From Rozella allomycis CSF55 (lineage: Eukaryota), in the NCBI GenBank assembly GCA_000442015.1, contig KE560926.1, positions 1 to 64,000 on the forward strand: a DNA stretch of 64,000 bases. Direction: 5' to 3'. The notes under the pieces were generated by a model. It was not told the DNA's origin. It did no database searches and saw nothing but the letters and a program-made list of their open reading frames with translations. Each line of letters starts with the position of its first letter. Within the stretch, counting starts at the first letter, position 1. The translations under genes and the position numbers were made by a program. Positions 2,375 to 64,000 of the stretch are shown here, in pieces.

Positions 2375-2454
2375 CGAATTGGCGCCAAAAACCAGGAAAT
2401 TTCAAAAAAACAAAATACACTAAAGTTAAATCATTTTTATTAAACATCGACAGT

Positions 2455-8321: not shown

Positions 8322-11300
8322 TTATTTTTTATGCTTCTTTTTCAGGCTTTTTGTTTTGGCGTTGGCTGCTTCTTTTTGAACGTCTTTGAGAATCTCTAAA
8401 GATCTTTTCTTTGAAGGGTTTTGAATGCTGACGACATTTTTTAGTTTCTTTCCATTTTGAAGAGCGTCATTCCAATCTTTTTCAGTTCCAGCCACTGCAT
8501 ATCTATTGAATTTTAAGAATTTAATTTACTGGTCAACATCGATAGCTTTTATGAGCTCATTTTGCTTTTCTTTGAGTAATTTTGTTGCTTCATCAGAAGC
8601 TTCTTCGAGGTCTTCATCGAGGGTTTGACGAGTAGGATCCCATTGTTCTTCATCGGCATAATCCTTTTTTGGTTTTGATGCAATTGAATTATCATTGTCA
8701 AACTTTTTAGGTTCATTATCAACTGTTTGTTTTTCATTTCTTTCTTTTTCAAGATAAATGACGAATTTTTTAATGATTTTGACAAACATAGCCAAGAGTT
8801 GATTCATGGGAAGATTAATTTCCTTTTGAAGATCATCCAAAGATTTTCTTTGAGCTCCAACACCAGTAAGAATAGCTGATTGAACAGGGGACATTTCAAT
8901 GAGATTAGTATTAAGGTTGAAAAGAGCTAATTGAGGAACAAGATCAAGAATAAGATGATAGTCAACCAATTGATTAGAATAAGATCTCAATCTCTTCAAA
9001 TCGAATGACGTCAACTGAGACAAAAATTGATCATTAAAGTTATTTGAAGTATTTTCAACTTTGTAGTCTAGAATAGTCAAAGCAAGTTGAGGTGAAAATG
9101 CAGAAAAGTCAAACGATAATAATTGAATAAATCTCTTTTTAAAATCTTTGATTAATAAAGAAAAATAAAATTACCAACATAAAGTTCTTCCAACCAAGTG
9201 GCACTACAATCTGGACGATCCAATTTCTTTAACATGATGCAGGTGTGTTCTCCAGTCAATTCGTTTCTAGTTTGTCTTAGATAAACAGGAATGAAATTCT
9301 TTTTTTGATAAAATCTAAAAAGTTGAAGCGTAAGGCCATAAGAAACACCAACCCAATGAAGCAAAGGTGCTTTTACTTCAGACAGCTTTGACAACAATGG
9401 AGGAAGATTCTTTCTTGGTTGAATTTTCTCTTCCAAAAGAGATGCATGCCTTTGTTCTTCTGGTTGCATCTCATGCATTTCTTCATTAATAAATGGAATT
9501 TCGCCATTATAAAATTTTTCCAACAACGATAAAGCACGTGTTCCATATCCCATTTTTTGGTAATCCGGGTGTGTGGCAATTCTAACAATTCTAGCACCAG
9601 AAAGGCTAGAGAATTCATCATCCTGAAATTGCTGAGCGACAGTCCAAGGAATCAAATCACCACCACCACGTTGTCCTCTGGCCAAGGAAGCTAATATGCT
9701 CTTTTTAGAGATTTCACCTTCCAAACAAACCTGGATGACACATAAAATTTCAGGTATTTTATTTGAATTTGGATCTACTGGTGGTAACAAAACAAATAAA
9801 TGATGGGCAGGAGCGTCAGACATCAACTGGAGATCATTTGGCGTGTTTTTATAATGTGAAGAAACATAAAGAGCAACCATTCTCTGCAAAAAACTTTCAG
9901 CAGCATTATGAAAAGAAAACAAAGTATCTCTATTCACATAAAATAGTTCACATTCATCAGGATGAGGGCATCCAGCTGTTGTCTTTGGAGGAATCTGAGA
10001 ATCCAAACATAAAAGCCCATTCAACCATTTTTCTATTGGGTCATTAAGAGAATATCTAATTGGTTCATCCAGAGTAACTTCTTTTAAAACTTTGCCATTG
10101 CTATTTTCTCTCAATTGTTTAATTAGCTTCAATGATAACGATCTACCGGTTCCTTCATACCCATGAATTGTTGAAGCCATGAAAACCAAATAATTTCCTA
10201 TCAACTTTTTAACAACTGGAAGTGGAATAGCTGCAGCTTCATCAATCACAACTAATTCTGCTTGCCCAAGAACATGTGCATCTTGTGGTTGAATATATTG
10301 AATGGTCTGGCGATGGTTCTTAAAAATATTCACTCTAACTACCGCCTTGTTGAAATCAGGATTAGTCGATTGAACCAAATCATAATCCAAATGCTCTTCA
10401 AATCCAAGTGCATCAAATCCTTTCAAAATAAACTGAAATAAAGTCTTCAAATTTTCAGGTGACGGAGATGTCACAAAAATGTTCGAATACCCATAAGCTA
10501 CAGCTGCTGCAATTGCAAGCCCCAAGGCTGCTGATTTACCTCTTCCTCTAGACGCAGTCAATGTAGCAATGTTTCTTAAACTCTTATCAGCTATCGCCTC
10601 CACAAACACCAACAAAGCTTTTGCCTGATCAATCGTCTTTGCTAATTCAACTAAGCTCCCAACTGGTTGCGTCTCTTTCAATGATTCCTTCAATTCTATC
10701 AACTCTGGGTTACTCTCTTTTATTTTCTCCAAATCATTCTCATCAATAGCCTTTATTCCTCTAATGCTTTCAGATATCGGCAAGACATTCCATTGATCAT
10801 CTAAAACTATCGAATTTTCACATTTAGTCAAAGACAAAAGAAATCTCTCATTGAATCGCGCAACAACATCTTCATGGACCTCAGTGCGATAACGGCTATG
10901 AACATCCATAGTCATAGTATACAATTGTTTCAAAGAATCCATTGTTCTCAATAACAATACAACAATACCACCACCTTGCACAGTTTCAATCGTACGGGCT
11001 AACAAATTTGGCGTCAAAGCCTCAAAATCCTATAAATGACTGAATAGTATTAAATTTACCTGTAAAACACACATACCGTAGGTATTTCCTAAAATTTTTT
11101 CCGTCTCCTTATAATACGCATATCGTATATCCGTAGACGAAATGAAAAGTTCAAAAGGATCTTCAGTCTCGGGATCCAACATTCCCCTTTCCTTTTTCTT
11201 TTTGATTTGGTTCATTCTCTTCTTTCTATGAGTAGTAAATCCAAGCTCTTTCTTGTAACACCATAATACCGAGGGCCTCGTCATATTAGCTTTACACAAC

Positions 11301-28940: not shown

Positions 28941-31900
28941 ATGTTTCAGCAATATACTTTACTAGTTTCTGAAATTCATTTAATTACCATGGCGATGTTG
29001 GTAAAAATCCAGCTGGAAAGATTATTAGCGGAAAGTCCAGTTAATCAAAAAGAAATCAGGCAAGTTATATTTAAATGTCTTGAGACGATTGTAGGAAATC
29101 CAGCATCAAAGTATTCCGTTGAATTTTTGTGGGTGCCATTTAAGACAGCGCTAAATTCGCCCATTGTACAAGTTAAGGCCACTTGCTTGGACTCATTAAA
29201 CAAATTGATAGCCTTTAATATATTTGGTGGGGCTACAACAGTATTTAATGAACAAAATGAAGAATTTCTGGACCATTTGAGGCCGAACCTTTTTGGACAA
29301 GAAGAATGTCATATACCTGCGAAGGAGGGCATATTGATTCTGGATGAGATAAGTAGAATTCACTAATTAATATTAGCGGTATTCGCTTTATGTACCACAT
29401 ATAGTTCACAAGAAAACCTTCAAATCATGACATGTAAATTGCTTCTAACATGTACTGTCAATCCAAATCTCATTTTTCATGGTGTTTCATTAATATATTC
29501 ACTAAACCTGGCCTTTCGAATATTGATTGATTCAAGTACTGACAAAGTGAAGTGGACAACTGCCAAGGCAACTTTAATTCAAATGATAAACACATTCTTT
29601 CAAAAGCTGCGACTTAAAAGTCGAGGAGAAAATTTTTGTGCTAAGGATCTTCAAACTGATACGATTTTAATTATTCGATATTTATGTCAAGTGGGACATT
29701 TGCCCGATAATGACGTTGTGGCAGTTGCAGTGAGTTTACTAAATGCTAGTCTATTATACACTGACATACCAATGTTCCTAGATTCCAATTTCAGCAAAGT
29801 TTTAAAAGAAAATGTTTGTCCGCTTCTCTTACATCTTGGATCTACAACAAGACATGATATTCTGGAGGATACCATTTTAATTGGCTTTTCATTATTAAAA
29901 TTCCATCATACCTATTTAAAGCCTGAAATAGAATCCTTATTTTTGAACATCTACTTTAAAATCTTGGAAAATGCTGGTAATAAGAAAGAAGCAAATTTTG
30001 TTGTCGATTTCTTTTCCAAAATATGTTCTGAACCTCAATTATTGCTTGATTTATATGTAAATTATGATTGCGATCCCTGTATGGAATCTTTATACGAGAA
30101 ATTTGCATTTGAATTATGTCGAATCCCGGCACTGGATTGCTTGAAATTATTGGTCGAATCGTTGATGCAATGGTGCTTGAATAAAAGAGAAGGTTTAGAC
30201 ATAGGAAACAATGTTTCAGATGTTCTCGTTAGTCCAATAGATTCTGACACAATAATTTTGGATGAGCAAAGCTCAAGAAAAAGGCTATTGAAAGATTTAA
30301 TATCAGAATTTAACAAGTCTCCAATAAAAACCATTCAAAAATTCATAAATAATGGATTTTGTTTAGAAGACAGCAAAAGTGTAGCTGAATTTATACTACA
30401 TGAAAAGTCTTTGTCAAAGAAGGCAATAGGTAAGTAATACAAATGGATCATAATAGGCGAATTACTTGGAGAAAATGATTCATTCTTTATTAAAGTTATG
30501 CATTCTTTTGTTGATCAACTTGATTTTAGAGAAATGAAATTTGTGACCGCTCTAAGGTCTTTCCTTCAAAAGTTTAGATTACCTGGTGAATCACAAAAAA
30601 TTGATAGACTTATGGAGAAATTTGCGGAAAGATACGTGGCGTGCAATCCATGTGTGTTTTCTACTGCGGATACAGCATACACTCTTGCGTATTCTATAAT
30701 AATGTAAGAGATCAATTATATTTAAGAAAAGGTTAAATACTGATCAACATTCAAAGCAAGTGAAAAAGAAAATGGACAAATCAGCATTTATAAAAAACAA
30801 TCGCGGTATTAATAACAATAAGGATTTGCCTGATGTCTTTTTAGAGGAAATATTTAATGAAATATCAGAAAATGAAATAGTTTTAGAAGATGAAAGAAAC
30901 ATTAGAAGATCTAGCTTCATTCTCAATCAGCCTATATCAATTAAAGTAACAAAACAAAAGGGAACACCTTCTGAATATCAAAAAGCAAAATCAGTAGATC
31001 ATGTGAAGTATATGTTTTCTTCCATAAACAAAGAAATGATAGCATGCATTGAAAAAGAATATGAAACGAATGGTGGATTTAAATATCTTGAAATTTATCC
31101 AGCGTGTTTGAACATTTGTAGTTTGTTTGGGCTAGTCTTGGAACGTGATTCTATAATTGAATCGTTAAAGAAACTTTCAACTTTGAAAGGAAAAAGTACA
31201 GAGGCAATGAAAGCGATAATAAATTTGGGAAACTATTTTGGGAACTTTTTGGATGCAAATTGGGCTCATGTTCTGGAAACAGTCGCTACTATAGAATCTA
31301 GCAATTCAATAGATGATTTTAATGAATTTGAAAACCAAAATTTACTCGTTTCAATTGATAGAATCTTTTCACATTCTGTTGACTTGGATGGAGAAGCAAT
31401 TATTTATTTTTTCACTGCGTTAATTGGAACATACAAGAAAATTGATGAAAGTCGTCTAGTTTCCTTGAGAAGAGTTGTTGAAGTTTGCTTCTTTAATACA
31501 AACAGAATTCGATTGGAATGGAATCAAATCTGGAAAATCGTCGCGCCGTTATTTAAAGAATTGGGCAGTAATTTAAACGAAAGAATTTCTATCTTTGCTA
31601 TTGATTCCTTGCGACAACTTTCACTTAAACTTTTGGAAAAGGATGAATTGGCTCATTTTCATGGGCAGAGTTCCTTTCTTTCAATCTTTGAAGAAATATT
31701 TAAATCAAATTCTCTGATTAATATAAAAGAATTAATTATTGATTCAATTTCTCAAATGATTGATTCTAAAAGCAAAAACCTTAAATCTGGTTGGGTAATC
31801 GTTTTCCGAATTTTATCAAATGCAGCCCAGAGTAAAAACTTAATTTTAATTGAAAAATCGTTTGCTGTTCTTAAAATAATCAAGCAAAAATATCTTTCTT

Positions 31901-48652: not shown

Positions 48653-51600
48653 ATGGGAGTTCCGGCGCTTTTCCGTTGGCTTAATAATAAGTATCCAAAA
48701 ATTACGAGGAGTGTTATAGAAGAAGCTGCAACTGCGAATAATACTGTTTGTGGCAGGCTGGATGCTTCTGGGCCGAATCCCAATGGGGAAGAAAATGATA
48801 ATTTGTATTTGGACATGAATGGAATTATCCATCCTTGTTGTAAACCGGAAGGCAGAGAGGCACCGAAAACGGAGGAGGATATGTTTTTGGCGATATTTGA
48901 GTATATAGACAGAATATTTGCGATGGTCCGACCGAGGAAGCTGCTTTATATGGCTATAGATGGTGTTGCGCCTAGAGCAAAGATGAACCAACAGAGAAGC
49001 AGAAGATTTAGGTCTGTGAAAGAGTTGGCGATGAAAAAGGCGAAAGAGGAAGAGATGATTGAGAATGGATTTGAGGTACCCAACACAGAGGATGGAGGAG
49101 AAGAATTTGATAGAAACTGTATTACCCCTGGGACAATGTTTATGTATAATTTGTCAAAGGCATTAAGATATTATGTGCATGATAGATTGAGTAATGATCC
49201 TGGCTGGAAGAATGTGAAAGTGATGTTTTCAGACGCGAGTGTACCTGGAGAGGGAGAGCATAAAATAATGACTTTTATTAGACAGCAAAGAATGAGTGAA
49301 GATCACGATATGAATACTAGTCATGTGATGTATGGACTTGACGCTGATTTGATAATGTTGGCGTTGGCTACACATGAACCACATTTTAAAATATTGAGAG
49401 AAGATGTATTTGCAGAAGATAGTACTAAAAGGTTTACGTGTACAAAATGCCAAAAGACTGGCCACATTGCAGCAGATTGTCCATTGGATAATCCAGAGAA
49501 GAGTGCCGTCCAGCCAAAGCCATTTATATTTTTAGATGTTGGGATTTTGAGAGAGTATTTGGAAGCAGAAATGAAAACAAATCCAAAATTAGATTTAGAG
49601 AGACTGATTGATGATTGGGTGTTTTTGTGTTTCTTTGTTGGAAATGATTTTCTTCCGCATCTTCCGTCATTAGAGATTAGAGAAGGAGCGATTGATAAAC
49701 TTTTAGAAATATACAAGAGAAGATTTGATGAAATGGGAGATTATTTAACGAATAATGGAATTGTAGATTTATCACGTGTGGCAATCATTATGGAAGAATT
49801 AGGGAGAATTGAAGATTCGGTTTTTAAGTCTAGAAGAGACAGAGAAGAAAGAAGAAGAGCGAATTTTAAAAGAAGAAGAATGGAAAATAATAATCCAATT
49901 CCAAACCAAGAAGAAATCATCGCTGCAAAGAATATTGAAATGGCGTCTCTTTTAAGATCTAAATTAGCCAAGAAATCTATTAAAGAAAATGAAGAAAACG
50001 AAGAAGAGAAAAGAAATTCAAGTGAAGCCAAAGATAAAGATAAAGAAGAGATTAGTGACAAAGTAGAAGTAGAAGAATTAAAAGAAGAGAAGGAAGAAGG
50101 GAATGGGGACAAGGAAGAAATAAAAGTTCTCAAAGGTGATTTGAATGCTCAGCTTACTGAATCAAAAGCTGAAGATTTTAAAGTGGAAACCAAAAATAGT
50201 TTAGAATCTACTGAAACTAAAGATGAAAATACTGAAATCATGGAATCTAAAAGCGTCACTGAAGTTGGATCAACAATCACAGAAATTAAAAGGCCAATCG
50301 ATGAAGATGAAAGTGACCCTGAACCTTACGATGACGTCAGACTTTGGGAAAATGGTTGGAAAGAAAGATATTACTCTTCTAAATTTGGGATTGAATTGTC
50401 TGATACTTCATTTATAGATGATCTAGTATTCAATTACGTCCAAGGTCTTTGTTGGGTTTTACAATACTATTACAGGGGTTGTCCATCATGGAATTGGTAT
50501 TTCCCATATCATTACGCTCCATTCGCTTCTGATTTCACAAAAATATCCAATCTGGATATTAAATTTGATCTAGGAACTCCATTTAAACCACTTGAACAGT
50601 TGATGGGTGTGTTGCCAGCTGAAAGTAGACAATTTCTTCCTCCAGGGTTACAAAAACTAATGATTGACGATGATTCACCAATAATTGATTTTTATCCAAA
50701 AGATTTTTCGATTGATTTGAATGGAAAAATTCATGCTTGGCAAGGGGTTGCACTTTTACCTTTTATTGATGAACAAAGACTTTTAGAAGCAATTTCAAAT
50801 GTTCAATTATCAAAAGAAGAAGAGAAGATGAATGAACAAGGCGAAGAGTCTATTTATCTTGGAAACTCGCATCCTGCATTTTCAATTGTTTTAGATCTTT
50901 ATGAACCAACAATAAAAGAAGAAATAATAGAAGTGGATGCAAAACTATTTGATGGTTTATCTGGATTAATTGGCCCCGATTCTAATGCTGTTCTCCCTGG
51001 TCAGATCTTTCCTAGACCATTTAAACAAGTTTCAGATTTGGAAAACAACAATGCTATTTCGTAATTAATTTTAATTTCTTTAATAAAAGATGTTTGTATT
51101 TCCATCCGCAGTTTCAAGACAAGCATGGATTCCAGTCAGAGTTACTTCCAGGTGTAGAACTTAAAGAGCGAGTTTTGACAAGAAATGATACTGATATGGT
51201 TAAAAGTGGCAGAAAGCATCTGTCACATGCATCCATGCACAGAGAATCTCATCAACAGAGAGAAGGAAGATCCATGCATGGCAAGTTAGACAGAAGATCC
51301 AACAGAAATGATAATTATGTTCCTAACCAAAGACAAGAATATAAACCTTACAATCGTCCAAGCAATCGCAGTAATGAGCGTTCTAGAGAACGTCCAAGTG
51401 ACAGACACAATGAATATCGTTCGTATGATCAATACAATCGTTCTTATGATCAGTATCAAGCATCAAATTATCAATCTGGATATTCTAATCAAAATCAATC
51501 TTACAGCTCTAATTCTAATCAAAATCTATCTTACAGTTCTAACTCTTATCACAATCAATCTTATAGCTCTCAATCTAGTCACAATCAATCATATTACAAT

Positions 51601-52605
51601 CAATATTATCCAAACAACAATTTTGATCAATATTCTCAATATCAAAGTCATCAACATGGTCATCATGTACAAAGTAATTCAAATCTCCATAGTCAACACG
51701 CTCATAATCAACATGGTCATCCTAATCAACANTTGTCACATGCATCCATGCACAGAGAATCTCATCAACACAGAGAAGGAAGATCCATGTATGGTAAATT
51801 AGATAGAAGATCCAACAGAAATGATAATTATGTTCCTAACCAAAGACAAGAATATAAACCTTACAATCGTCCAAGCAATCGCAGTAATGAGCGTTCTAGA
51901 GAACGTCCAAGTGACAGACACAGTGAATATCGTTCGTATGATCAATACAATCGTTCTTATGATCAGTATCAAGCATCAAATTATCAATCTGGATATTCTA
52001 ATCAAAATCAATCTTACAGCTCTAATTCTAATCAAAATCTATCTTACAGTTCTAACTCTTATCACAATCAATCTTATAGCTCTCAATCTAGTCACAATCA
52101 ATCTTATAGCTCTCAATCTAGTCACAATCAATCATATTACAATCAATATTATCCAAACAACAATTTTGATCAATATTCTCAATATCAAAGTCATCAACAT
52201 GGTCATCATGTACAAAGTAATTCAAATCTCCATAGTCAACACGCTCATAATCAACATGGTCATCCTAATCAACACGCTCCACTCGCTCACCAACAAGCAT
52301 TTCCACCGTCAAACTATTCAAACAATCCAGCTCAACAATACGGCTACCAACAGCCACAATACAGCAACATGAATTACTATGGCCCACAATCAGGATACAA
52401 TTGGAACGCACAGTATCAAACACATAATCAACATCAAGCACCAGCCCATAATCAAAACTATTATGTTCAACAATTACAAAACTACCATGGGCAGCAACAG
52501 CAGCAAAGACCATCAAGAGATCCAAGATCAAGTATCAGAAATCAAACCACGACAAACACTGCTAATCTCGCGTGGTCTAGGAACATTAATCGTCAGAAAA
52601 AGTAA
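48653..52605 (+). CDS. RAT1: 5'-3' exoribonuclease Xrn2/Rat1 with zinc knuckle and Q/N/S/Y/H-rich C-terminal tail
   Basis: MGVPALFRWL, DNLYLDMNGIIHPC, AIDGVAPRAKMNQQRSRRF, PGEGEHKIM, CTKCQKTGHIAADC, GNDFLPHLPSL, WYFPYHYAP; one intron about 51061-51089. Confidence 0.96.
51220..52274. repeat. Near-identical tandem duplication (512 and 542 nt) separated by a single N at 51732
   Basis: The copies differ by about 7 substitutions and one extra 30-nt unit (SYSSQSSHNQ) in copy 2. Confidence 0.9.
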
Positions 52606-52668
52606 TAAAAGTTCAAGTTAAATTCAAAAATCTTTTAATTTCATATCCATTATCCATTATAAGTTTAT

Positions 52669-55600
52669 TTATTTGTAGAATCTCTGTCTGAAAGCATCCA
52701 CAGTTTTAGCATTCCTCTCTTTCCTCACAAAACTCGGTTTCATTTCATAAAGCGATCTAGGAAACTGTTTAACAGCCCTTTCTTCAACCTCAATAAACGG
52801 CGGCGGTCTCTTTAGAATAAACGAAATATCCAAATCCACATCAACATTGACCAAATCCAGCACATTCTGAATAGAAACATCATGCACGGTATAAGACGCG
52901 TGGTTGACTACAGAGTTGACAATGTGATCGTCGTCGTATTGAAACAGAGAGCATTTGTGGTTGTATTCTTGCTGTTTCAATACTTCGAATGATTTCTTCA
53001 ATTGGTAAAATAGAGCGGGTGATGATCGCAGGGGATCGGCAGCGAGTAGTTCAAATGTTTTCAGGATTGATTCTCTGGATTTGAAGAGATTCAGGGGATC
53101 AATGTTTTCCTATACTTTGAATTTATGCATATTACTGAATCGAATGCAGAGTCTGGGTTGATTTCAAAAGAAAGTTTTTCTAGTTTATCAAGGATGGCTA
53201 GATCAGATTGATGTGAAGTAGACCATGAATTTATTTTGAAAGAAAGGGGATCCAAGTATATTTCTTTTGAGATTTCATTTGGATGCAAAATCTATATTAA
53301 GATGGATAACAATTTACGTTTTCTATTTTCGAATTGTTAATTAATGATTTTATTTTCTCATTGAATACAATTCTTGTGCCTAAACCTTTAAAGGGAAGAG
53401 TGAATGATTTTTCATGGCAAATGATTGAAAGGGATCCATTCAATGATCCAGTTTTATTGGCGATTAAATTCAAGTCGATTTGTTTTGATTGTTTTGATAA
53501 AATAGAAAAAGATTCTGGTAAAATTAACTTGTAGTCTTTTGATTCAACTGAAGTAATGACTACGTTGGCAGTAACATCGCCCTTGTTTATTAACTGAATT
53601 TTAGCTTGTTGAATGAAATAACAAGGACAGAAACCTTTTTAATTAAAATTATGTTTGTATTACCAAAGTTTAGAATAGAAGAGGGTTTGATTAGTAGATT
53701 GAATGTACCGCCGACACCAAAGGCGATTATTTCCTTGTAATTTGTTCCTTTGCATTCAACAATAAAATTTTCTTGAAATTTAATGAAATTATTTGGTGTG
53801 AATGAAAGATCTACATTTTCAGATTCATGGACATTCAAAGTTCCATGTAATTTTGACAATCTAAAGACATCTTTTTGATGATAATTGATAGACCATTTAA
53901 GTGGTACTTTACCTAATGATTATTCAATAGGTTTCTATTTACCTAATTATTATTAAAGCATATTATTACCTCTGTTAACTAGCGTGAATGATTTGCTGTA
54001 TAAACAATCCACAGCACACACGCCAAAATCCAAACAAGAATGCCTAATAAACAAATCGGGCTGCACCGACTTTCCTCTCACCGTGCAATCAAACACACCC
54101 ACATTAGTCTTCAAGTGAATCTGGCTTCTCAGTTCATACGCGCCAGAAGGCAGCCAGCTAATTTTAACCATTGCTCTATCCAGCCCATTAATAGAAATAC
54201 AATTCGGCTCTACTCTGATGGGGAATGCAGCAATAATGTCAATTTGGAGTGGATACTTTCCAATATTTACCAAAGGAATTTCCCTCGTCGACAGTTCAAA
54301 GACGGGACAGGTGGACAGGTTTATTGATTCGATTAGAGATAAATCCAGAAGAGCTTCTTCGCATTGCCCCATCAAGTCGACGTGATAGAATTTGTCATTG
54401 GCGTCTGTTTTAATAACTATTTTTTCTTCGAATGGGCCAGTTTTGAATGGAATGCAGCTTGTAGAGATTTCAACAGACTTTTTAGGTAGAACTAGTCCTT
54501 TGAATGTGTGCAGTTGAATGAATGAAGGTTTTGTTAATGGTTTAATAGAAAACTTTGTTTTAACAGAGCCAATGTTTTTAATTATGAAAGATAGTTTGGG
54601 TTTGGTGGATTTTTCAAAAAAGCCGAAATCTAATTTTGATTTTGACACTTCTAGACTGATTGTGCCAGAATGTAATTTGATTGGAATTAGATGCCTTGAA
54701 TAAGGAGAAGAAACTAATAAATGAAGTTGCAAATCTAAATCTTTTGGTGGTTTAAAATAAATCATTAAATTTGATTCTTCAAATGGTAAAATAGTTAAAT
54801 TGGATGGTTGAAGAATTATTAAATTATTAACAATTGAATCTAAAAATAGAAATCTAATAATAATACCCTTGTCTTTATCTTTATCTTTTTCATGAATAGA
54901 AAATGTTAATGGATAATTAACTTGACCAACATTTTTAAAAGTAATTGAATCAGAATATGTATTCCCTTTGAATATAATTGTATGTTATTTACCAACAATG
55001 CAGTCTATGAATTCAAGAGATGATTTTGAGATTAGCAAGACAGATTCTCTTCCAGTTCCAATTAATTCAATTTCATATTTTTCTAATAAAGTTCCAATTA
55101 TAACTTTTCCTGCTGGAGGATTCTCTTCCATTGGCATAAAAATTAATGGCAAATTAAATGTCGTTCCTTTAAATTGTTAACAATCAATGTTACCTGGTTG
55201 AAGTGATATTCTATCCATTGGCCATTCAATTCCTTTAACTGTGAGAATAGATTAATTACCTCTAGAATAATGTTTAGATTCAACCAAATCAAACAATGTT
55301 AAATGAAGAATTGCATTTCCTTCATTTGTTATTGGCAAATAAGACAATGTTTGTTTTCCCAGCATACACAACCCAAAATCAAACCTATATATGTTAAAAG
55401 TAAAGATTTATACCTATTTCAAAGATTAACAATTGATTACCTAGATTATCTACTCTACCTTTTTCTACCTTTTAAATTTGGTTAAACTGATTCGCGCAAA
55501 TCCACCCCCACCAAACATCCCCAACCTAATCCTCTGCGAACAATCAGGTTCAAAATACACAGGCGCACTCTGCACAGCTTCTTCCGTCGGCTTAAAAATA

Positions 55601-58600
55601 AACGCAATAGTAACAGACTCATTAACATTTAAATTACCCTTATTAGGAACAACAACCAGCGATGAATTTTCATTAACAATTTTAAATGAAATAGATTTAT
55701 GCCCAACATTTCTGAAATTTCTGTAAATAGTTTCAGATTGGCCCAACGGCTGTCGACCAAAATTTAAAGTTGAATTGTCGTCTACTAGAATTGTGACTAG
55801 TTTGGGAGAGGCTGTGATTAATGTTTCAATGTTTTTGGTGTTTGGTATGTCTACTTTGCCAATGAGGGTGGATGAGAATGATTCTTCGTTGGGAAGTAAT
55901 AGTTCTATTGTTATTTCAATCTCTGAATGTCCATTGATCATTGTTTCTGATGGGAATACTTTGATAAATGGTTTTGTTGTGCATAGTGATTGTGAACCAA
56001 CTGGATTTGTTGTTATTAAATGATAAAACATTTGCTTCTTTTTCAATTGAATTGATAATATATTCAACATGTTCTTTTTAGTCAATTGTTTAATATCTAT
56101 CAATGATAATAGATGATTATTTACCCAACCCTTTCTCTAAACAACTCTCAAAGCTTACCTTGATCTTTTAGTACCATTCGTTTAATCAACATCCAATAAT
56201 CTTTAGCTTTAAATTCAACAGATTCATTTCTATCCTTTTTCTCTTTAATTAATTGATTTCTTAAAAAGGGAGATCTTGGATCTGTAACTGAAAATTGTTC
56301 TTCTAGATTAACAAAAGATCCATTAGTTTTATTCTGTCCAACAATTGAAAATTCAAATTTTATTCTCGTTGAAATTGAACCCGCATTCGTTATTTTAATC
56401 TTCTTTTGATAAGCATACATGGCTGCTATATCACTAAAATTCAAATCTCCATTAAACGCTAAATTAATTGTTCCACTCTTGCCTATTCTAATCATTTGTG
56501 TTATTTCAAACCTTTTAATGGAATAGTCAAGTCATTTCTTTCAGCAAATATGTGAATAAATGAAGTAACACTCTCTTCTACTCTACTATTAAATCTAACT
56601 AGAAAATCCATGGCACTTGAAGCATTCAACATGAATTGACCATCTTTAATCCAATTAAAGCTAGTAACCTTTAAAAGTACAATTAAAATTAAATTATTTA
56701 CCTATTAATCAAATATAGTTGAATTCTTTCACCTAGTAATCATTTACCAGTACTACTTTACCTATATTAATCATTCCAACTACTACTTTACCTAGTAATC
56801 ATCCAAATTATTCTCCTTTACCTTTTTTCTCTTCTCTTCTTTGATTCTCTCCACAGGATACGCACTGCCAACCACACAAGTACTAAAATCCTGCCCATCC
56901 TGCCTAACATTAAACTGCATCGACACAAGCCCCACATTAATCAGCCTAAAATAACAATCAAAACTAGTAAACAGTGGAATAGTCCCAAAATCAATACACT
57001 CAATTCTAAATCCATCCAGACTCTCCACCTGCAGCTTGCCCAGTCCACCCATCCCAACAACTTTAAGTGAAATGCACTCCTTTTCATACAAGATCTTCAA
57101 ATTGGCAATATATTTGCTATCAGTGCGTGGCTTGAACACAAATCTTAGAGGAATTACACTGTTGGCTTCAATGTAGCCTCGTCGTGGTTGGATGTCCATT
57201 TCACGGATTCCTGTTGGCTGGATCAAATAGTCGATTGAAAAACACGATGAATTTACAAGCTTGAAATTGTTTATCATGCAAGTTAACACTGGCTGCACCT
57301 TTAAATCCAATTCTACATTCTTGTCTGTTGAACTAATTGTTCTTTCGTTGGAATCAATCAGCGATAATCTTGGAACACTACTGGCTCCATTCAATTCCAC
57401 ATCTACAAATTCTTTTCGTGTGTAAATTCTTATAATCTTTTTAAATTCAATTGATTCTGCTGGATTGAATACTATTTTACATTTAATCTTGGAATATGCA
57501 TCTACACACCCTTGATTTGGTTCAATAAACAGTCCATCGTTTTCTAATTCAATCATCCATCTTGTTTTGCCATCCTTTTTTATTGTTTCATAGTCATCAT
57601 CTTCCAATAAACTCCAATCCAAGTTTCCTGGTTGTGGTCGAACCTAAAAGATTTAGGGGTTTAAAAGTACATTACCTTGAAATTAATGCCTAAATTACTC
57701 AAGTTACCTATTATCAAATTATTCAGTATAGATACCTATATTCAAATTATTTCAGTATAGATACCTATTATCAAATTATTTCATCTTATTACCTTGAAAT
57801 TGAATGGCAAATTGCCTTTGTTTTCAATAAGAATCTCTTTTTTAAAAGTAGATTCAACTCTACACATCCCAAAGTCTACAAACAATTCATCAACAGCCAA
57901 CACAGCTTTCCCTATTAAACACCCACAAACACTCATTACCACCATGCCCTCTCACCAGCGTAACAAACGAGCTAAACCCATAATAAAATTCAATCTTATA
58001 ATCATAAAGCACCATTTCAGTCGGTTTAAACGCCAGCTTCACTTCTACCCCCTTATCAACCTTCAATTCTCCCTTATTCGGCTCAACAGTAAATGGACTG
58101 GCTGAATCATACACGTATCGTCCCTCTTTCACCTTTAAAAACCTAACTTGGAATTTAATATCAATGTTGCCGTGGTTAAACAGCTTAAACTTTTTCACCT
58201 CAAAAGACTCAATCTGACACACCCCAAATTCAATACAGTTCATAAACGTTTCTGGTTCAATCACAATCTTTGGAGCGCCAACCTTGCCCTTCAACTGGAT
58301 AGTAAAATAGTCGCCTCTAGCATCATTAGACCTAACGTAGATTTTCACATCCAAGTCTTCAATAACAGTCGGAGTAAACAGAACATTCGCTTTGGCGACA
58401 CTGTTTGGGGGAATACACACCATCCCATTGTCGCTGTTGCTCTCCAATTTAATCTGTGGATGGTAACACGCAAAAGTTAGTGATGCTTCTGCTGGGCCCT
58501 TGTTCTCAATTTCAATGGATTTCACATTCAACACGCCAATCAATGCAACATCAAAGTCTAATTCTTTTGTTAACACTTGGATCTCTGGGTATCCGCCACT

Positions 58601-61600
58601 TCCTTTAAATGATATCACTAGTGGTTTGGGTGTGTTTATTTCTTCTGATTGAACGTGGACTTTTAATTGTCCTTTGATGTTGCAAACACTTTTTGGTTGA
58701 AATTTAATCATCAAATAAACAATTCCATCACCTCATTTCAACAATTCAAACTAGTTACCTTATTATGTCAATATCTTAAACTTTTACCTAATATTTCAAC
58801 CCCGTAAACTTTTTACCTTCAATAGTACCATTCTCTGGTTCAACAGACACTTGCGGGTCGCTACTCTCAATATAAAACTTTGCNACAGACACTTGCGGAT
58901 CGCTACTCTCAATATAAAACTTTGCCGACATAACACCCTGATTAGTAACAGTAACATGATCGACATAAACAATCTGCCCCACACAAACACACTTAAAGTC
59001 AATAAAATCAGTTGAACAAGTTAAACTCGTAGACGCCCCCACTCCCTGCACAAGAATACTGCAGGTGGAATAATCTTCAGTAACCAAATGCAAAATACTC
59101 TGCATTTGGTACTGCGGCATTGACGGCTTGAACACCACATCAACAGTCTGCGTGCACCCGGGATACAATCGACCGTGCAATGGGAATATTTCTAGACAAG
59201 TTGTTAGCAATCTTTGCACTGAGAAATTGGTGTTTGTTATTTGGCCTTGCAGTGCTTTGATTAGGTTTGCGTTTTTGCCGGCTTTTCTGTAGACCATTTC
59301 TTCTTGCTCAATGCACCAGTTTAATGGGACTAGACCATTGTTAGTGAATTTAATTTCTTTTAAATGTTTATCTTGGACTCCACAAATGCCAAAATCAATC
59401 TTTTTCTCTGTTACTATTAATGGTGGTTGCAAACTGGCTTTGGTAGAGTAAACAAATTCTGTGATTGTATTGTTTATTGAAGACACTTTAAATGTTACAT
59501 CAGATTCATATTCTCCCTTATTATAAAGTTTCATCGTAATTTACTTTGGATAGTCCACCAAATGCAAAAACAAAATCTATAAATTGATTTGGCGCTAATC
59601 TTATAGGAAACAATCTCTTCAATGTCTATCATTCTCTATTTAAAACAAATCTTACATTGTCGTTGAATTTAAGTTTAAAGGTGAAATCTAATTCATCCCA
59701 ATCAACACAAATAGAATCTGGTTTTTCATCTTGCAATTCAAATTGATTCTTGAATGGATTCAATGCTTCATGATAAGATTTTACATCATCCAATGCTATC
59801 AATTGATTTGTTCTGTAATCTACAACATTCCAAGCTAATAAATCTGGATTTGAACAATTTAAATTCATCAAACTCAATTCAAATGTACTTGTATTAAACA
59901 ATCTAAATGTTTTTGTTTTACACGAACCAACTCCAACCAATCCAAAATCTATCAAGCTTGGCAAATCTTTAATTGAAACAAATTCAACATTATTAAATAC
60001 ATCAACTGCATTTTCATTCTCTTTCAATAGTTTGGCATCTTTCAACACTGAATCTTTTAACGTTGAGTCTTTTAAGATTGAAGAATCTTTCTGTTTCAAC
60101 TCCTTTATATCTTTCACCTCCTTGACCTCTTTCAACTCATGTTCTTCAACTCCTTCAACTTCAATTATCCTCTTCACACTCTTAGGCCTCGCCAAATTAT
60201 TCTCCAACACAATCTTCCCACTATTAGCCATCAAAGACACAGCAAATGTTTTTCCTTTATGACAAATACAAATAAAATCAGAAAAATAATCAGTCAAAAT
60301 TGGCTGAAACGAAATACTCAACACAATCTTACTCAACTTTGGTATCATCTTGATAATAGACTTTCCATTCAACATAAACGGTTGCTTTGGCGGTAATAAT
60401 GAAATAAAAGTATCCATTGGTGAATTATTATAGATTGTTATTGATTTGTTCACTGAATTGCCAACTTGTACATCGCCAAATGATATTGATTCATTAGTGA
60501 ATTGGATCTCTCCTTCGCCAATACTAGACTCCAAATTTATTATCTTTATTGGAACATTTATCAATTTATTCTTTTCATGCTCCAAACAGTTAATCTCCAT
60601 CTTTGAATGATAGTTTCCTTGTCTCAATGCTTGAAACGACACATCAACACAATACATTTCATATCCATACAACTTGCCATGCGTAGTATTCAATGAAAAT
60701 GGCACTGTAACCTTTTCTTCATTTACTTTATCTAAATATATCTTTGCCTCCCATGACACTTCAATTGGAAATCTATTATAGATCATCAACCGCTCACTCG
60801 TCTTTTCATTCGATTTCGGTGATCCTATTTGAATAACACTTTTAGTTCTTGTTTCTGTCCATATTTGGTTTTGATACACTCCATACAAACTACATCCAAC
60901 ACAACTCTTTCCTATCTCAACCCTTCACCATTAATTACCTTGATCATCACACACAGAAATCGATCCAACAATCGTATTGCTCTGATCTTCAATAAACAAA
61001 TCAAAATAGTTATAATCAATCCCCACAACCAACTCTACACTCTTGTTCGGATACAACGTTCCTTCAACTTCATTCACTACAAAGAATGGCCACGACACTA
61101 CAATTCTATACTTTTGCACTATAGAAGCCACACACGTCAATGTAACTGAAACATTCTTATTCACTTTCAAATACAACGCATTGCAACTCAATTTAAATAT
61201 TTCTGGAGGCGCTTGAATAGATTCAACAACTTCAACCAAATAATCACTCTCACTAAACATCAATCTTCTATCCTCTTCTCGCCCAAACAATGTTCTTATT
61301 TGCGCTACAGTCTTCACCTTCAAAAACGCTTCACTCAAACTCATTCCAAATATCACATAAACTACTTTCGGCATCTTTATCGGCTCACTCATCTTTACAC
61401 TCAAATTACTTTTATAAATCCCTCCCTTGGCTGGATTAAACACCAAATCCACAAAATACACTGAACAACTCGGCATACACAACACCAACACTTGCTCATC
61501 CTCTTCATTCTTCATCTCTGCCTTTACCATCTCATTCTTATTATAAACACTATTAGGCTTCATACTGAACACACCATTCTTCTTTTCTATTCTAACTTCC

Positions 61601-64000
61601 ACTCTGCTACTCTCCAAATGCGGATTATAAATGGGAACAACGATATTCACACTAGCCTTCGGATTCACCGCAGGCATCACAATCGTCTGTCCAAACGGCA
61701 CATTCACCATACAATTCACCTTGCAAACACACTCAACACTCTTAACTTCACTATTAGGGCTATAAATATTCAACACACTATTCTTCATCCCTCCAAAATT
61801 CGGTTTAAAATACACACAAACTTTCCTCTTCTCACCAGGTCTCAACACAAGCGCCTCCATCTCCTCTTCAATCAATACCTCCCTTGACCCACTCTGTATA
61901 ATAACAGGCACACTCTCCTTTTCATCTTTATTAATCAGCGTCAAACTCTTTTCAACCTTCTCCATCGACACATCACACACCCCAAAATCTAAGCGGTCTT
62001 CAACTACCTCCAACGCACTAAAACAGCGTCCTTTCAATTTCACAAAATGCTTCTCCCCATACGCCGTCAATATCATCAGCTCATCCTCAATCTCATCCTC
62101 CTCACACTGCGGCTGGAACGTTATCCATATCTGCTGCTTGTTCCTCGGCCCAATAGTCATGCTACCCACACTGCTCGCAAAAAATGAACTCGTTTTGCTA
62201 GGCACAACACTAAATATACAGTTCAAATCCATCCCCGATAAATTAGACACAACCAGCAACGCCTTTCTCTCGTCTTTAACAATACACGTTCCGAAATTCA
62301 GTCTCTGTGCTGATAAATGCAAAACTGGAATATTAAACGCTCTCAATGACAGTCTATTCCATCTTTGATAGTTTATTACCTCTCCAACAGGAATCCATTC
62401 ACATTCCTCACACGCAAATACCCATTAATGTCTCTGCCCATCGTAATCTCCAACGGTCTGGGCGTATACTGGATGCTCAAATTGGCATTCGAATTCGCCT
62501 TCAAAAACACATACCCAGGCTCTGCTACAAACAGATTCGGTGGATATGTTTGCAAACACAGCGATACATCCACATCCGATTTATTGTAAATGTTAACCTC
62601 TTTAGACAAATTAAACTTGTTGAATATCAAACCGGTTGGCAAACTAAATGTTATAGTGGCCGGATCAAGAACAAAATCTCTTTGCTTGTCATTGCCAGAT
62701 GCGATTTCATCAAGAAACGTTATAGAAGAAAATTTCCCCATCAAATCTATTTTAGCGATGTGTTTAATTTACTATTGAGAGAGAACGAGCGCAACGACGC
62801 TGACACTTTACGTTGCCTCTGTGCGATGGTCTCAATATCATCCCTTAATTCTTGGCGCGCAAATACCGTATAAACTGGCGGCTCAACTATATTTTCCTCA
62901 TTAAAAGCTCGTTACCATTTTTATCATCATCAAAATACGGAAGCGCTTGCACCATGCCATTAGCCTTTTTCTTATTAGCATTTGCAAACTTTTTAGATCT
63001 CGTCCATCCAAATTCTGCATTATGCTTTATATCACCCGATTTCCCTGAATCAAACCTAGTAGCATCTTCAACCATCCATTTCCTTCTACGCACAGCATAC
63101 CCGCAATCACCCAAATACTTTTCATTGCCTTCCAAATTGGCCTGCAAAGATGGAAGCTGCGCAATGTGAGAATCAGAGGGCAGCGGATACCATTTGTTCC
63201 AAAACTTGGAAATTGCCTTTACCAGGTGCGGATGGTAGTCTTCATTCATGGATCCGATTTCATCAAACAAATTAAATGATAGCTCTTTGACAGCAACAAA
63301 GAAAGTATTCATTCTTTGTCGATTGCGATTGGTCATATCCAATCGACACAAAAACGACAATACCTCTGCTTGCAACAGGAAATGCACATTCTCATTCAAC
63401 AGATGCAAAAGCACCATGTCAATGTAATCTGCTATATGCTGCTTTATAGCCTTGTTTTCATCACGCATGAAATACGACAAGGCATTCAATATCATTATAC
63501 GATTCTTGGTATGCTCATCAGCAACAAAATACTCCTTGTGTGGCGGCTTCTGTGTATGCACAGCAACAGGAAACAGCTTCACAAACATATTCACAACAAC
63601 AATACAACCCAAACGCAATGAGACACTGTAATTCTCGCCAAATGCGGAATTCAAATAACCAAGCACAACATACGCCAGAAACCTGTTCTGCTCCACCTTT
63701 TATCATCAAAGATATACACCATACTTCATCACTGCTGGCAATATCAGTAACCCGTACGATCAACGCGCGGATACTTTCAGCATTCAGCAACGTGCTTTGG
63801 ATAGCATTGGCGCCCATATTAAATAACATTTTCATAGTGGTCAATCTAATGAATGTCTCGGGAGACTTTAGCGCATTAAGGATATTGTTCCAATGTTCTT
63901 CATAACACTTCATATTCATATAATTCTATTAATGCAATACCAATTCTTTACATAGTCACAAGAAAGCATGGAATATGCTTGTATTATTTGCTTAAAAATT
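52669..64000 (-). CDS. Giant ciliary-type protein with many tandem ASH/Ig-like domains (HYDIN/CFAP47/CFAP65-like) and a helical N-terminal region; 5' end outside window
   Basis: Repeated units of the form LDFG.C......i.i.N.G.....F......F.v.P..G.l......v.i.F.P........l.i......i.l.G.G across ORFs 53091-62744. Exons join in frame through about 22 intervening sequences over more than 3000 codons. Confidence 0.8.
53913..53969 (-). other. Stacked intron array A: 2 abutting GT..AG units (27+30 nt)
   Basis: AGA G|GTAATAATATGCTTTAATAATAATTAG|GTAAATAGAAACCTATTGAATAATCATTAG|GT AAA GTA CCA; removal gives LVNRGKVPLKW. Confidence 0.8.
55385..55468 (-). other. Stacked intron array B: 3 abutting units (28+27+29 nt)
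   Basis: AAA AG|GTAGAAAAAGGTAGAGTAGATAATCTAG|GTAATCAATTGTTAATCTTTGAAATAG|GTATAAATCTTTACTTTTAACATATATAG|G TTT GAT; removal gives KFKRFDFGLC. Confidence 0.8.
56669..56821 (-). other. Stacked intron array C: 5 abutting units (30+30+29+31+33 nt)
   Basis: AAG|GTAAAGGAG..GATTACTAG|GTAAAGTAG..ATTAATATAG|GTAAAGTAG..GATTACTAG|GTGAAAG..GATTAATAG|GTAAATA..TTTTAAAG|GTT ACT; removal gives KRKKVTSFNW. Confidence 0.82.
57644..57792 (-). other. Stacked intron array D: 5 abutting units (28+29+28+32+32 nt)
   Basis: TTC AAG|GTAATAAG..GATAATAG|GTATCTATAC..GAATATAG|GTATCTATAC..GATAATAG|GTAACTTG..TTTCAAG|GTAATGTAC..CTTTTAG|GTT CGA; removal gives NKGNLPFNFKVRPQPG. Confidence 0.82.
58732..58816 (-). other. Stacked intron array E: 3 abutting units (29+29+27 nt)
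   Basis: GAA G|GTAAAAAG..AAATATTAG|GTAAAAG..CATAATAAG|GTAACTAG..GAAATGAG|GT GAT; removal gives EPENGTIEGDGIVYLMIKFQP. Confidence 0.8.
58843..58925. repeat. 41-nt tandem duplication separated by a single N at 58884, with one synonymous difference
   Basis: acagacacttgcgggtcg...tttgc N acagacacttgcggatcg...tttgc (GAC versus GAT on the coding strand). Confidence 0.9.

What the first reader, a model, noticed from the sequence alone, without database searches (positions are those of the whole stretch)
53913..58816. Arrays of back-to-back micro-introns with zero-length exons (candidate recursive splicing system)
Seen: five intervening sequences in the giant ASH-repeat gene (53913-53969, 55385-55468, 56669-56821, 57644-57792, 58732-58816; minus strand) split exactly into 2, 3, 5, 5 and 3 consecutive GT..AG units. 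All 18 units are 27-33 nt, the size of ordinary introns in this window. Each starts GTA (one GTG) and most have a branch-like TGA/TAA shortly before the AG. Removing a whole array restores the frame and the ASH motifs. Established: recursive splicing at AG|GT ratchet points is known in long animal introns, and nested stwintrons in fungi. Inference: a spliceosome tuned to about 30-nt introns removes these units one at a time. I do not know of a description of such regular multi-unit micro-intron stacks.
Basis: partly seen in the sequence, partly recalled or inferred. Interest (0 to 1): 0.92.

Follow-up and report, generated by a model that had tools for sequence, protein, structure and literature searches.

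The report
Tandem stacks of duplicated micro-introns
In one giant cilium-type gene of a eukaryote whose normal introns are only about 28 bases long, five intervening sequences are head-to-tail stacks of two to five complete mini-introns, and the number of copies differs between strains, so introns here multiply like a minisatellite and probably have to be cut out one at a time.

Summary
All five intervening sequences tile exactly into 18 GT..AG units of 27-33 nt. Removing them whole, together with 16 single introns, gives one open 3353-codon frame. Stacks of three or more units are far beyond chance.

They are not assembly errors. Three independent DNA runs carry the same stacks with different whole-unit counts, and the rebuilt variants still tile exactly.

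New findings:
- Neighbouring units in three stacks are recognisable tandem duplicates.
- All 5 stacks sit in an exon context AG|..|GT, against 0 of 33 single introns (Fisher p 2e-6). This AGGT microhomology allows precise in-register duplication of an intron.
- Units carry ordinary splice-site motifs.
- The stacks have no special RNA fold.

Best reading: these are intron minisatellites, each copy a self-sufficient micro-intron. They are most likely removed unit by unit, which would be recursive splicing across zero-length exons.

No RNA data exist for this organism in the tools, so stepwise removal against one-step removal is untested. I found no published description.

The parts
52669..63925 (-). 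Giant gene of repeated Ig/ASH-type (HYDIN/CFAP65/CFAP74-like) domains. It has 16 single micro-introns plus the 5 arrays, and an open 3353-codon frame from 63699 to the stop at 52671-52669. A further 28-nt intron at 63697-63724 and a start near 63920 come from my own gene finder.
53913..53969 (-). Array 1: 2 units (53969-53943, 27 nt; 53942-53913, 30 nt), codon phase 1. It splits an Ig/ASH domain. In run X4 it has 4 units (27, 30, 30, 30).
55385..55468 (-). Array 2: 3 units (55468-55441, 28 nt; 55440-55414, 27 nt; 55413-55385, 29 nt), phase 2, at a domain boundary. Contigs of X1 and X2 stop at its edge and continue with different unit sequences.
56669..56821 (-). Array 3: 5 units (56821-56792, 30 nt; 56791-56762, 30 nt; 56761-56733, 29 nt; 56732-56702, 31 nt; 56701-56669, 33 nt), phase 0. 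Units 1-3 are tandem duplicates (TRF period 30). X1, X2 and X4 have only 3 units.
57644..57792 (-). Array 4: 5 units (57792-57765, 28 nt; 57764-57736, 29 nt; 57735-57708, 28 nt; 57707-57676, 32 nt; 57675-57644, 32 nt), phase 0. Units 1-3 are tandem duplicates (TRF period 29, 90% matches). It is 29 nt shorter in X1 and X4. It splits an Ig/ASH domain near profile position 37 of 100.
58732..58816 (-). Array 5: 3 units (58816-58788, 29 nt; 58787-58759, 29 nt; 58758-58732, 27 nt), phase 1. TRF finds period 28 with 73% matches.
56097..56158 (-). Near-array: two consensus 28-nt introns (56158-56131 and 56124-56097) separated by a 6-nt exon (56130-56125). The alternative reading is one atypical 38-nt intron at 56137-56174.

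Best explanation
The five intervening sequences are intron minisatellites.

Origin (inferred). An ordinary ~28-nt intron lay in an exon context ...AG|intron|GT.... It therefore carried the same four letters, AGGT, at both of its junctions. Slippage or unequal exchange between these two copies duplicated the intron precisely and in register. Once two like copies exist, further unequal exchange expands and contracts the stack. That explains why unit number differs between strains.

Why it is tolerated. Each copy keeps a full set of ordinary splice signals. The pre-mRNA is therefore most likely cleared by the normal spliceosome taking out one ~29-nt unit at a time. Each excision re-creates an AG|GT junction, so order does not matter, and any in-register pairing of a donor with a later acceptor also ends in the same mRNA. 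Functionally this is recursive splicing across zero-length exons. It arises as a by-product of duplication in a genome whose intron recognition is set to ~24-30 nt.

Shown: the anatomy, non-randomness, duplication, whole-unit polymorphism, exon context, and restoration of the frame.
Inferred: the slippage origin and the unit-wise excision.
For: - Exact tiling into 18 units; far beyond chance for stacks of 3 or more units.
- One open 3353-codon frame only after full removal. 77 of 79 possible unit-retention patterns break the frame.
- Domain halves flank arrays 1 and 4.
- The ordinary intron size is real. Three single introns (27, 28 and 30 nt) are confirmed by seamless Sec7 and TmcA_N profile continuity. 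All 33 curated single introns are 24-30 nt.
- Units score like introns beyond GT/AG: mean 1.49 against -4.09 for background spans.
- Tandem duplication. TRF finds period 30, 29 and 28 repeats in arrays 3, 4 and 5. Adjacent-unit identity is 0.66 against 0.56 between arrays (permutation 78 of 5000). The clearest pairs score 0.87, 0.77, 0.75 and 0.74.
- Whole-unit polymorphism in independent DNA runs. Array 1 is +60 nt in X4. Array 3 is -61 nt in X1 and X2 and -60 nt in X4. Array 4 is -29 nt in X1 and X4. The rebuilt variants tile exactly as 27,30,30,30; 28,31,33; and 29,31,33.
- Loose contig ends at arrays 2 and 3 (table 7). Read by eye, they show other unit sequences, but the five ends I could read across a boundary all show AG|GT.
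- Exon context AG|..|GT in 5 of 5 arrays against 0 of 33 single introns (Fisher p 2e-6).
- No stabilising RNA structure that could bridge the outer sites: z -0.56 and +0.13.
- No DNA contig lacks a whole array (table 5), so removal is not at the DNA level.
Against: - No RNA evidence of any kind. There are no junction reads, intermediates or lariats, so unit-wise excision is inference only.
- 8 of 13 adjacent unit pairs are no more alike than unrelated introns. A duplication origin is therefore shown only for part of each stack.
- Conserved internal AG|GT could be inherited from recent duplication and gene conversion, not kept by selection.
- My gene finder proposes three 35-39-nt introns elsewhere (2226-2458, low confidence). 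If real, the length ceiling is softer than 30 nt.
- Arrays occur in only one gene of this window (5 of 22 intron sites there; none among the intron sites my gene finder called in the other genes), and the genome is not held. Generality is unknown.
- A two-unit stack by itself is within chance.
Confidence: 0.55

Rival explanations
1. One-step removal. Each array is spliced as a single 57-153-nt intron from the first GT to the last AG. The internal splice sites are unused relics of recent tandem duplication.
For: - Some units are clearly young duplicates, so their internal sites need no selection to be present.
- Whole-unit polymorphism follows from unequal exchange alone.
- Nothing in the sequence forbids a longer intron, and three 35-39-nt introns may exist.
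Against: - Internal donors and acceptors are as good as those of ordinary introns, and each lies nearer to its own unit's partner site than to the outer ones. A machinery that pairs sites 24-30 nt apart in 33 of 33 curated single introns would have to ignore them.
- 8 of 13 adjacent pairs have diverged to background identity yet keep GT, AG and a 27-33-nt length.
- No intron of more than 40 nt that cannot be tiled was found in the window.
- No bridging RNA fold.
Confidence: 0.25
2. The dissimilar units did not arise by duplication. They arose because a very short exon between two formerly separate introns was lost or shrank to nothing, leaving the introns abutting.
For: - The same gene holds two 28-nt introns separated by only 6 nt of exon (56158-56097) and by 39 nt (55194-55232).
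- 8 of 13 adjacent pairs show no similarity above background.
Against: - It does not explain the 5 of 5 AG|..|GT exon context.
- It does not explain the whole-unit gains seen between strains.
- It does not explain the TRF-detectable repeats.
- Arrays 1 and 4 lie inside a domain with no residues missing by the Pfam profile coordinates.
Confidence: 0.1
3. Repeated insertion of a small mobile intron (introner-like element) into the same AG|GT target.
For: All arrays sit at AG|GT, a classic proto-splice or target-like site. A 12-nt identical stretch is shared by the last units of arrays 3 and 4.
Against: - Identity between arrays (0.56) equals that between unrelated single introns (0.54).
- There are no dispersed near-identical copies, and no arrays in other genes of the window.
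- Neighbours are the most alike, as duplication predicts.
- 28-30 nt is far below known introners (recalled, not from a call).
Confidence: 0.04
4. Assembly or sequencing artefact.
For: The window has an N at 58884 beside a 42-nt exact exonic duplication that other runs lack. The assembly is therefore not flawless near array 5.
Against: Contigs from three DNA runs in three studies cover or enter all five arrays. Record 6 of X1 and record 20 of X4 span array 4, and record 19 of X4 spans arrays 1 and 2. Variants differ by whole units and remain tileable.
Confidence: 0.02

Closest known systems
Recursive splicing at ratchet points / zero-length exons in long Drosophila and vertebrate introns (papers seen only as search listings and abstract starts: PMC2773006, PMC5126111, PMC6110456)
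   Same: Juxtaposed acceptor and donor (AG|GT) with no exon between them. Removing the upstream segment regenerates a donor, so the product is reached through several splicing reactions.
   Different: There the segments are kilobases long, lie in introns of tens to hundreds of kb, and are conserved regulatory sites. Here the segments are 27-33 nt, the same size as every ordinary intron. Up to five are stacked, they arose by tandem duplication, and their number varies between strains. No RNA intermediates have been seen here.
Fungal stwintrons and complex intervening sequences (PMC7138796: abstract and found passages read; PMC9024468, PMC8469720: listings only)
   Same: An intervening sequence made of more than one U2-type intron, excised by consecutive reactions. 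Small duplications of splice elements are proposed as the origin, and intron definition favours the smallest unit.
   Different: Stwintrons are nested: the inner intron interrupts the donor, branch point or acceptor of the outer one. Here the units abut end to end, each is complete on its own, and order of removal should not matter.
Intron gain by tandem genomic duplication across AGGT (PMC3265369, PMC4974935, PMC2891723: listings and abstract starts only)
   Same: A tandem duplication bounded by AGGT yields a new spliceable GT..AG segment. The AG|GT context is the enabling feature.
   Different: In the classical cases exon sequence is duplicated and part of it becomes a new intron at a new position. 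Here an existing whole intron is duplicated in place, giving zero-length exons and stacks.
Intron number polymorphism by repeat expansion in a Cryptococcus gene (PMC2395259: found passages read)
   Same: Slippage or unequal crossing-over in a repetitive gene region changes the number of introns within a population.
   Different: There the repeat unit contains exon plus intron, so exons separate the copies. Here the repeat unit is the intron alone.
Genomes with ultra-short introns: Paramecium, Stentor, nucleomorphs, dicyemids, myxozoans (PMC13644364: passages read; PMC12862383 and PMC13685798: searched for 'tandem' and 'recursive'; others: listings)
   Same: A narrow intron length distribution below 30 nt and weak internal signals.
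   Different: None of the passages I read mentions abutting or tandem introns. This organism uses the standard stop codons, and its XRN2 is nearest (about 50% identity) to chytrid and other fungal proteins.

Membership tests
Recursive splicing (ratchet point / zero-length exon) | Acceptor directly followed by donor (AG|GT) inside an intervening sequence | tested here: met
   13 of 13 internal unit junctions are AG|GT[A/G]
Recursive splicing (ratchet point / zero-length exon) | Removal of the upstream segment regenerates a usable 5' splice site | tested here: met
   At sequence level only. The upstream exon ends AG in 5 of 5 arrays and every unit begins GTA or GTG, so each ligation gives AG|GTA.
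Recursive splicing (ratchet point / zero-length exon) | Partly spliced intermediates and one lariat per segment observed in RNA | not testable with these tools
   No RNA run holds the gene. The one RNA run laid gave only a 33-nt partial match.
Recursive splicing (ratchet point / zero-length exon) | Host intron is very long (kb to hundreds of kb) | tested here: not met
   Arrays are 57-153 nt
Stwintron (nested spliceosomal twin intron) | An inner intron interrupts the donor, branch element or acceptor of an outer intron | tested here: not met
   Units abut at complete GT..AG boundaries, each with its own intact donor and acceptor motifs
Intron gain by tandem duplication at AGGT | AGGT at both ends of the duplicated segment | tested here: met
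   5 of 5 arrays are flanked by exon AG and exon GT; 0 of 33 single introns have both
Intron gain by tandem duplication at AGGT | Copies are recognisably similar | tested here: inconclusive
   Clear for units 1-3 of arrays 3 and 4 and units 1-2 of array 5. 8 of 13 adjacent pairs are at background identity.
Intron gain by tandem duplication at AGGT | Duplicated exon sequence becomes intronic | tested here: not met
   Matches of units to exon ends are 9-10 nt and as common elsewhere in the window. The repeat unit is the intron itself.
Minisatellite / VNTR | Head-to-tail units of 10-100 nt with copy-number differences between individuals or strains | tested here: met
   TRF periods 28-30 in 3 of 5 arrays. 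Unit number differs in X1, X2 and X4 for arrays 1, 3 and 4.
Introner-like mobile introns | Many dispersed, near-identical copies in unrelated genes | tested here: not met
   Identity between arrays is 0.56 against 0.54 for unrelated single introns. No arrays outside this gene in the window. The whole genome is not available.

The most novel reading that the evidence does not exclude
In this organism intron recognition has a hard upper length limit near 30-35 nt. An intervening sequence can therefore only grow in quanta of whole introns. Stacks of up to five abutting micro-introns are cleared by iterated ordinary splicing across zero-length exons, in any order. They expand and contract like minisatellites, so the number of introns at a single site is polymorphic within the species. 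Precise intron duplication (and by symmetry precise intron loss) at AGGT microhomology would then be a live, observable mechanism of intron turnover.
Probability: 0.45. Interest if true: 0.8.

Novelty: new variant of a known kind. Interest (0 to 1): 0.64.

Why it matters
If the units are removed one by one, this is recursive splicing stripped to its minimum: zero-length exons between introns that are each the standard size. It would be a natural experiment on whether spliceosomes in ultra-short-intron genomes measure intron length. It would also show introns being duplicated precisely in place, with unit number still varying between strains. That would give a directly observable route of intron gain and loss through AGGT microhomology, a question usually approached only by deep comparisons. 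For annotation, gene finders that cap intron length or forbid zero-length exons will break such genes. If instead the arrays are spliced in one step, they remain a curiosity: introns that lengthen by self-duplication.

Tried and rejected
- Whole genome of the window: not held, so no genome-wide census of intron lengths or arrays.
- RNA evidence: no RNA holder listed. The one RNA run laid (X13) gave a single 33-nt partial match.
- Homologues of the exon between arrays 3 and 4: none at E<=1e-5 among proteins of 481-2000 residues.
- Relatives in metagenome contigs: none by protein patterns and none by an exact 24-mer.
- XRN2 homologues could not confirm the 29-nt intron at 51061-51089, because conservation ends at 51055.
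- First attempts at an intron catalogue were too noisy and were replaced by junction tiling and a small dynamic-programming gene finder (all GT..AG spans joining open frames; codon log-odds filter; replacements).
- Exon-derived origin of unit ends: the 9-nt match of array 4 unit 4 to the upstream exon end is no better than chance matches elsewhere.
- The branch-point-like motif as a unit feature is not above chance in ordinary introns.
- RNA structure bridging the arrays: none.
- Naming the organism: only an affinity could be given. XRN2 is about 50% identical to chytrid and other fungal proteins, with no near-identical protein in the database.
- Literature: six phrase searches found no description of abutting or tandem micro-introns. 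The library lacks most subscription journals, and supplements were not opened.
Full report
**What the window is.** The window has about 33% G+C. It carries long open frames under the standard stop codons for ordinary eukaryotic genes: XRN2-type exonuclease, NAT10, a Sec7/BIG-type exchange factor, a PDS5-like protein, proline dehydrogenase and an MscS-like channel. The XRN2 frame is about 50% identical to chytrid and other fungal proteins, and no near-identical protein is in the database. I can give only that affinity.

**Ordinary introns.** I tiled the junctions between neighbouring open frames with GT..AG spans, read difficult places directly and curated 33 single introns.
- They are 24-30 nt long. 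30 of 33 begin GTAA, and they end [A/T]AG, mostly with A at -4.
- They are not RNA-verified. I left out ambiguous candidates and those not starting GTA.
- Three are confirmed by conserved-domain continuity. The Sec7 profile runs 1-53, 51-134 and 135-183 across the 27-nt and 28-nt introns at 30430-30456 and 30704-30731. TmcA_N runs 2-105 and 105-178 across the 30-nt intron at 11030-11059.
- A small gene finder of my own proposed three introns of 35-39 nt at 2226-2458 in a poorly coding stretch. I treat these as low confidence.

**The observation.** On the minus strand the five stretches split at AG|GT into 27+30, 28+27+29, 30+30+29+31+33, 28+29+28+32+32 and 29+29+27 nt.
- The first unit of the second array contains one more AG|GT, which would give pieces of 10 and 18 nt. 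These are too short to be units.
- Seventeen units start GTA and one starts GTG.
- Removing the five arrays whole, together with 16 single introns, yields a single open frame of 3353 codons from 63699 to a TAA at 52671-52669.
- Of the 79 possible ways of leaving one or more units in, 77 break the frame. The exceptions are unit 5 of array 3 alone (33 nt) and units 3+4 of array 4 (60 nt).
- Pfam on the flanking exons shows the gene is a chain of HYDIN/CFAP65/CFAP74-type Ig (ASH-like) domains.
- The 39-residue exon before array 4 matches profile positions 2-37 of 100 right up to its last residues.
- The exon after array 1 starts at about profile position 33-48 of such a domain.
- Together these show that the two arrays interrupt domains which become continuous on removal.

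**More than chance.** Shuffled interiors of the two five-unit arrays were tileable in 0 of 20000 trials each. The three-unit arrays were tileable in 5 and 82 of 20000, and the two-unit array in 266 of 20000.
- A scan of both strands found four chains of three or more units, all at the reported sites, against 0.95 expected from block shuffles.
- Two-unit chains (20 seen, 34.2 expected) are not remarkable by themselves. Array 1 therefore rests on its position at an exon junction and on the four-unit allele described below.

**Not an assembly error, and polymorphic.** No RNA run holds the gene. I laid three DNA runs from three studies and one RNA run. The RNA run gave only a 33-nt partial match.
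- The DNA contigs differ from the window by about 1-2% in exons, break preferentially at the arrays, and carry whole-unit differences.
- Array 1 is 60 nt longer in X4.
- Array 3 is 61 nt shorter in X1 and X2 and 60 nt shorter in X4.
- Array 4 is 29 nt shorter in X1 (record 6) and X4 (record 20).
- I rebuilt the variants from the reported joints. Array 1 tiles as 27,30,30,30. Array 3 tiles as 28,31,33 or 29,31,33, or 29,31,28 if a second 5-nt joint in X4 is real.
- Read by eye, five loose contig ends at arrays 2 and 3 run into different unit sequences, yet each shows AG|GT at the boundary and unit lengths of 28-32 nt (table 7). This is my reading, not a computed result.
- No contig joins exon to exon, so nothing is removed at the DNA level (table 5).

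**Origin.** Tandem Repeats Finder reports period 30 (85% matches) in array 3, period 29 (90%) in array 4 and period 28 (73%) in array 5.
- With the fixed ends trimmed, adjacent units average 0.66 identity, units within an array 0.60, units of different arrays 0.56 and unrelated single introns 0.54.
- Shuffling array labels reached the observed within-array mean in 78 of 5000 trials.
- The clear duplicates are units 2/3 and 1/3 of array 4, units 1-3 of array 3, and units 1/2 of array 5. The other 8 of 13 adjacent pairs are at background.
- The new and, I think, telling point is the exon context. All five arrays are preceded by exon AG and followed by exon GT. Of 33 single introns, 8 have AG before, 2 have GT after and none has both (Fisher p 2e-6).
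- An intron in that context has AGGT at both junctions, one intron length apart. Slippage or misaligned repair between these repeats duplicates, or deletes, exactly one intron in register.
- This explains why stacks exist only at such sites. Later unequal exchange between like units explains the copy-number variation.

**How the stacks are probably removed.**
- Beyond GT and AG, the units carry the same flanking preferences as ordinary introns. Mean score is 1.49, against 2.37 for single introns scored left-one-out and -4.09 for all 3281 GT..AG spans of 24-33 nt in the window. All 18 units fall within the single-intron range.
- A machinery that pairs a donor with an acceptor 24-30 nt away at every ordinary site should do the same at unit 1, then at the regenerated AG|GTA junction, and so on. 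Removing an internal unit first leaves a shorter but still valid stack.
- The arrays have no unusual RNA fold (z -0.56 and +0.13). In the window I found no intron over 40 nt that cannot be tiled.
- These points favour unit-wise, recursive-type removal. They are inference.
- Young duplicates keep their sites by descent, unequal exchange keeps unit lengths without selection, and there is no RNA. I put unit-wise removal at roughly 0.6 to 0.65, and the combined origin-plus-mechanism reading at 0.55.

**What did not hold.** Its excess in units (for example TGAT/TGAA/TAAT in 16 of 18 against 7.9) probably reflects shared descent. Apparent copies of exon ends inside units are no longer than chance matches.

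**Comparison with what is known.**
- The junction logic is that of recursive splicing at zero-length exons. But the host intervening sequences are 57-153 nt, not kilobases, and the segments equal the standard intron size.
- Stwintrons are nested, not abutting (PMC7138796, abstract and passages read).
- The AGGT tandem-duplication model of intron gain applies to the origin, except that a whole intron is copied instead of exon sequence (PMC3265369, PMC4974935: listings only).
- A Cryptococcus gene varies in intron number by repeat expansion, but its repeat includes exon (PMC2395259, passages read).
- Six phrase searches, plus term searches inside three recent short-intron papers, found no description of stacks of abutting micro-introns. 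The library misses most subscription journals, and I opened no supplements.

**Verdict.** The arrays are real, non-random, tandemly duplicated in part, polymorphic in whole units, and confined to AG|GT exon contexts. The recursive-splicing interpretation is plausible and is the default expectation from the anatomy, but it is untested. I rate it a new variant of known kinds (recursive splicing; intron gain by tandem duplication), of good interest to people working on intron evolution and splice-site pairing.

Noticed in passing
window 58843-58925 (N at 58884): An exact 42-nt tandem duplication inside an exon (14 residues repeated), with an N in it. The X4 contig skips 42 nt here, and an X1 loose end also joins across it. 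It is probably an assembly join artefact or a strain-specific duplication, just upstream of array 5.
   Followed up: partly
window 56097-56158, minus strand: Two consensus 28-nt introns separated by a 6-nt exon. The alternative is a single atypical 38-nt intron at 56137-56174. Both keep the frame. This could be a stage between separate introns and an abutting pair.
   Followed up: partly
window 57671-57660, 56681-56670, 55402; also 57850 and 54943 (minus strand): The last units of arrays 3 and 4 share an identical 12-mer, and the last unit of array 2 shares 9 of its letters. All 5 occurrences of that 9-mer in the whole window (both strands) lie in this gene: three in last units and two in exons, where it encodes part of the repeated domain motif. 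Significance unclear.
   Followed up: partly
window 52669-63925 versus the rest: Intron density is very uneven. The giant gene has 22 intron sites in about 10 kb of coding sequence, and the arrays all lie in its 3' half. XRN2 has 1 intron in 4 kb and several genes have none.
   Followed up: no
window 2226-2458, minus strand: My gene finder needs three introns of 35-39 nt in a weakly coding part of the PDS5-like gene. If real, they are the longest single introns in the window and soften any strict length ceiling.
   Followed up: partly
window 52600-64000 in runs X1, X2, X4: Contig depths and alternative letters show two or more haplotypes or strains within single runs, about 1-2% apart in exons.
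   Followed up: no
window 56822-56854 and 58817-58850, minus strand: The last 33-34 nt of the exons before arrays 3 and 5 are themselves GT..AG spans of unit length, so a motif scan extends these chains to 6 and 4 units. The stretch before array 5 codes for conserved domain residues, so I count both as exon.
   Followed up: partly
window 51732: A second N lies in the C-terminal, non-conserved part of the XRN2-like gene.
   Followed up: no
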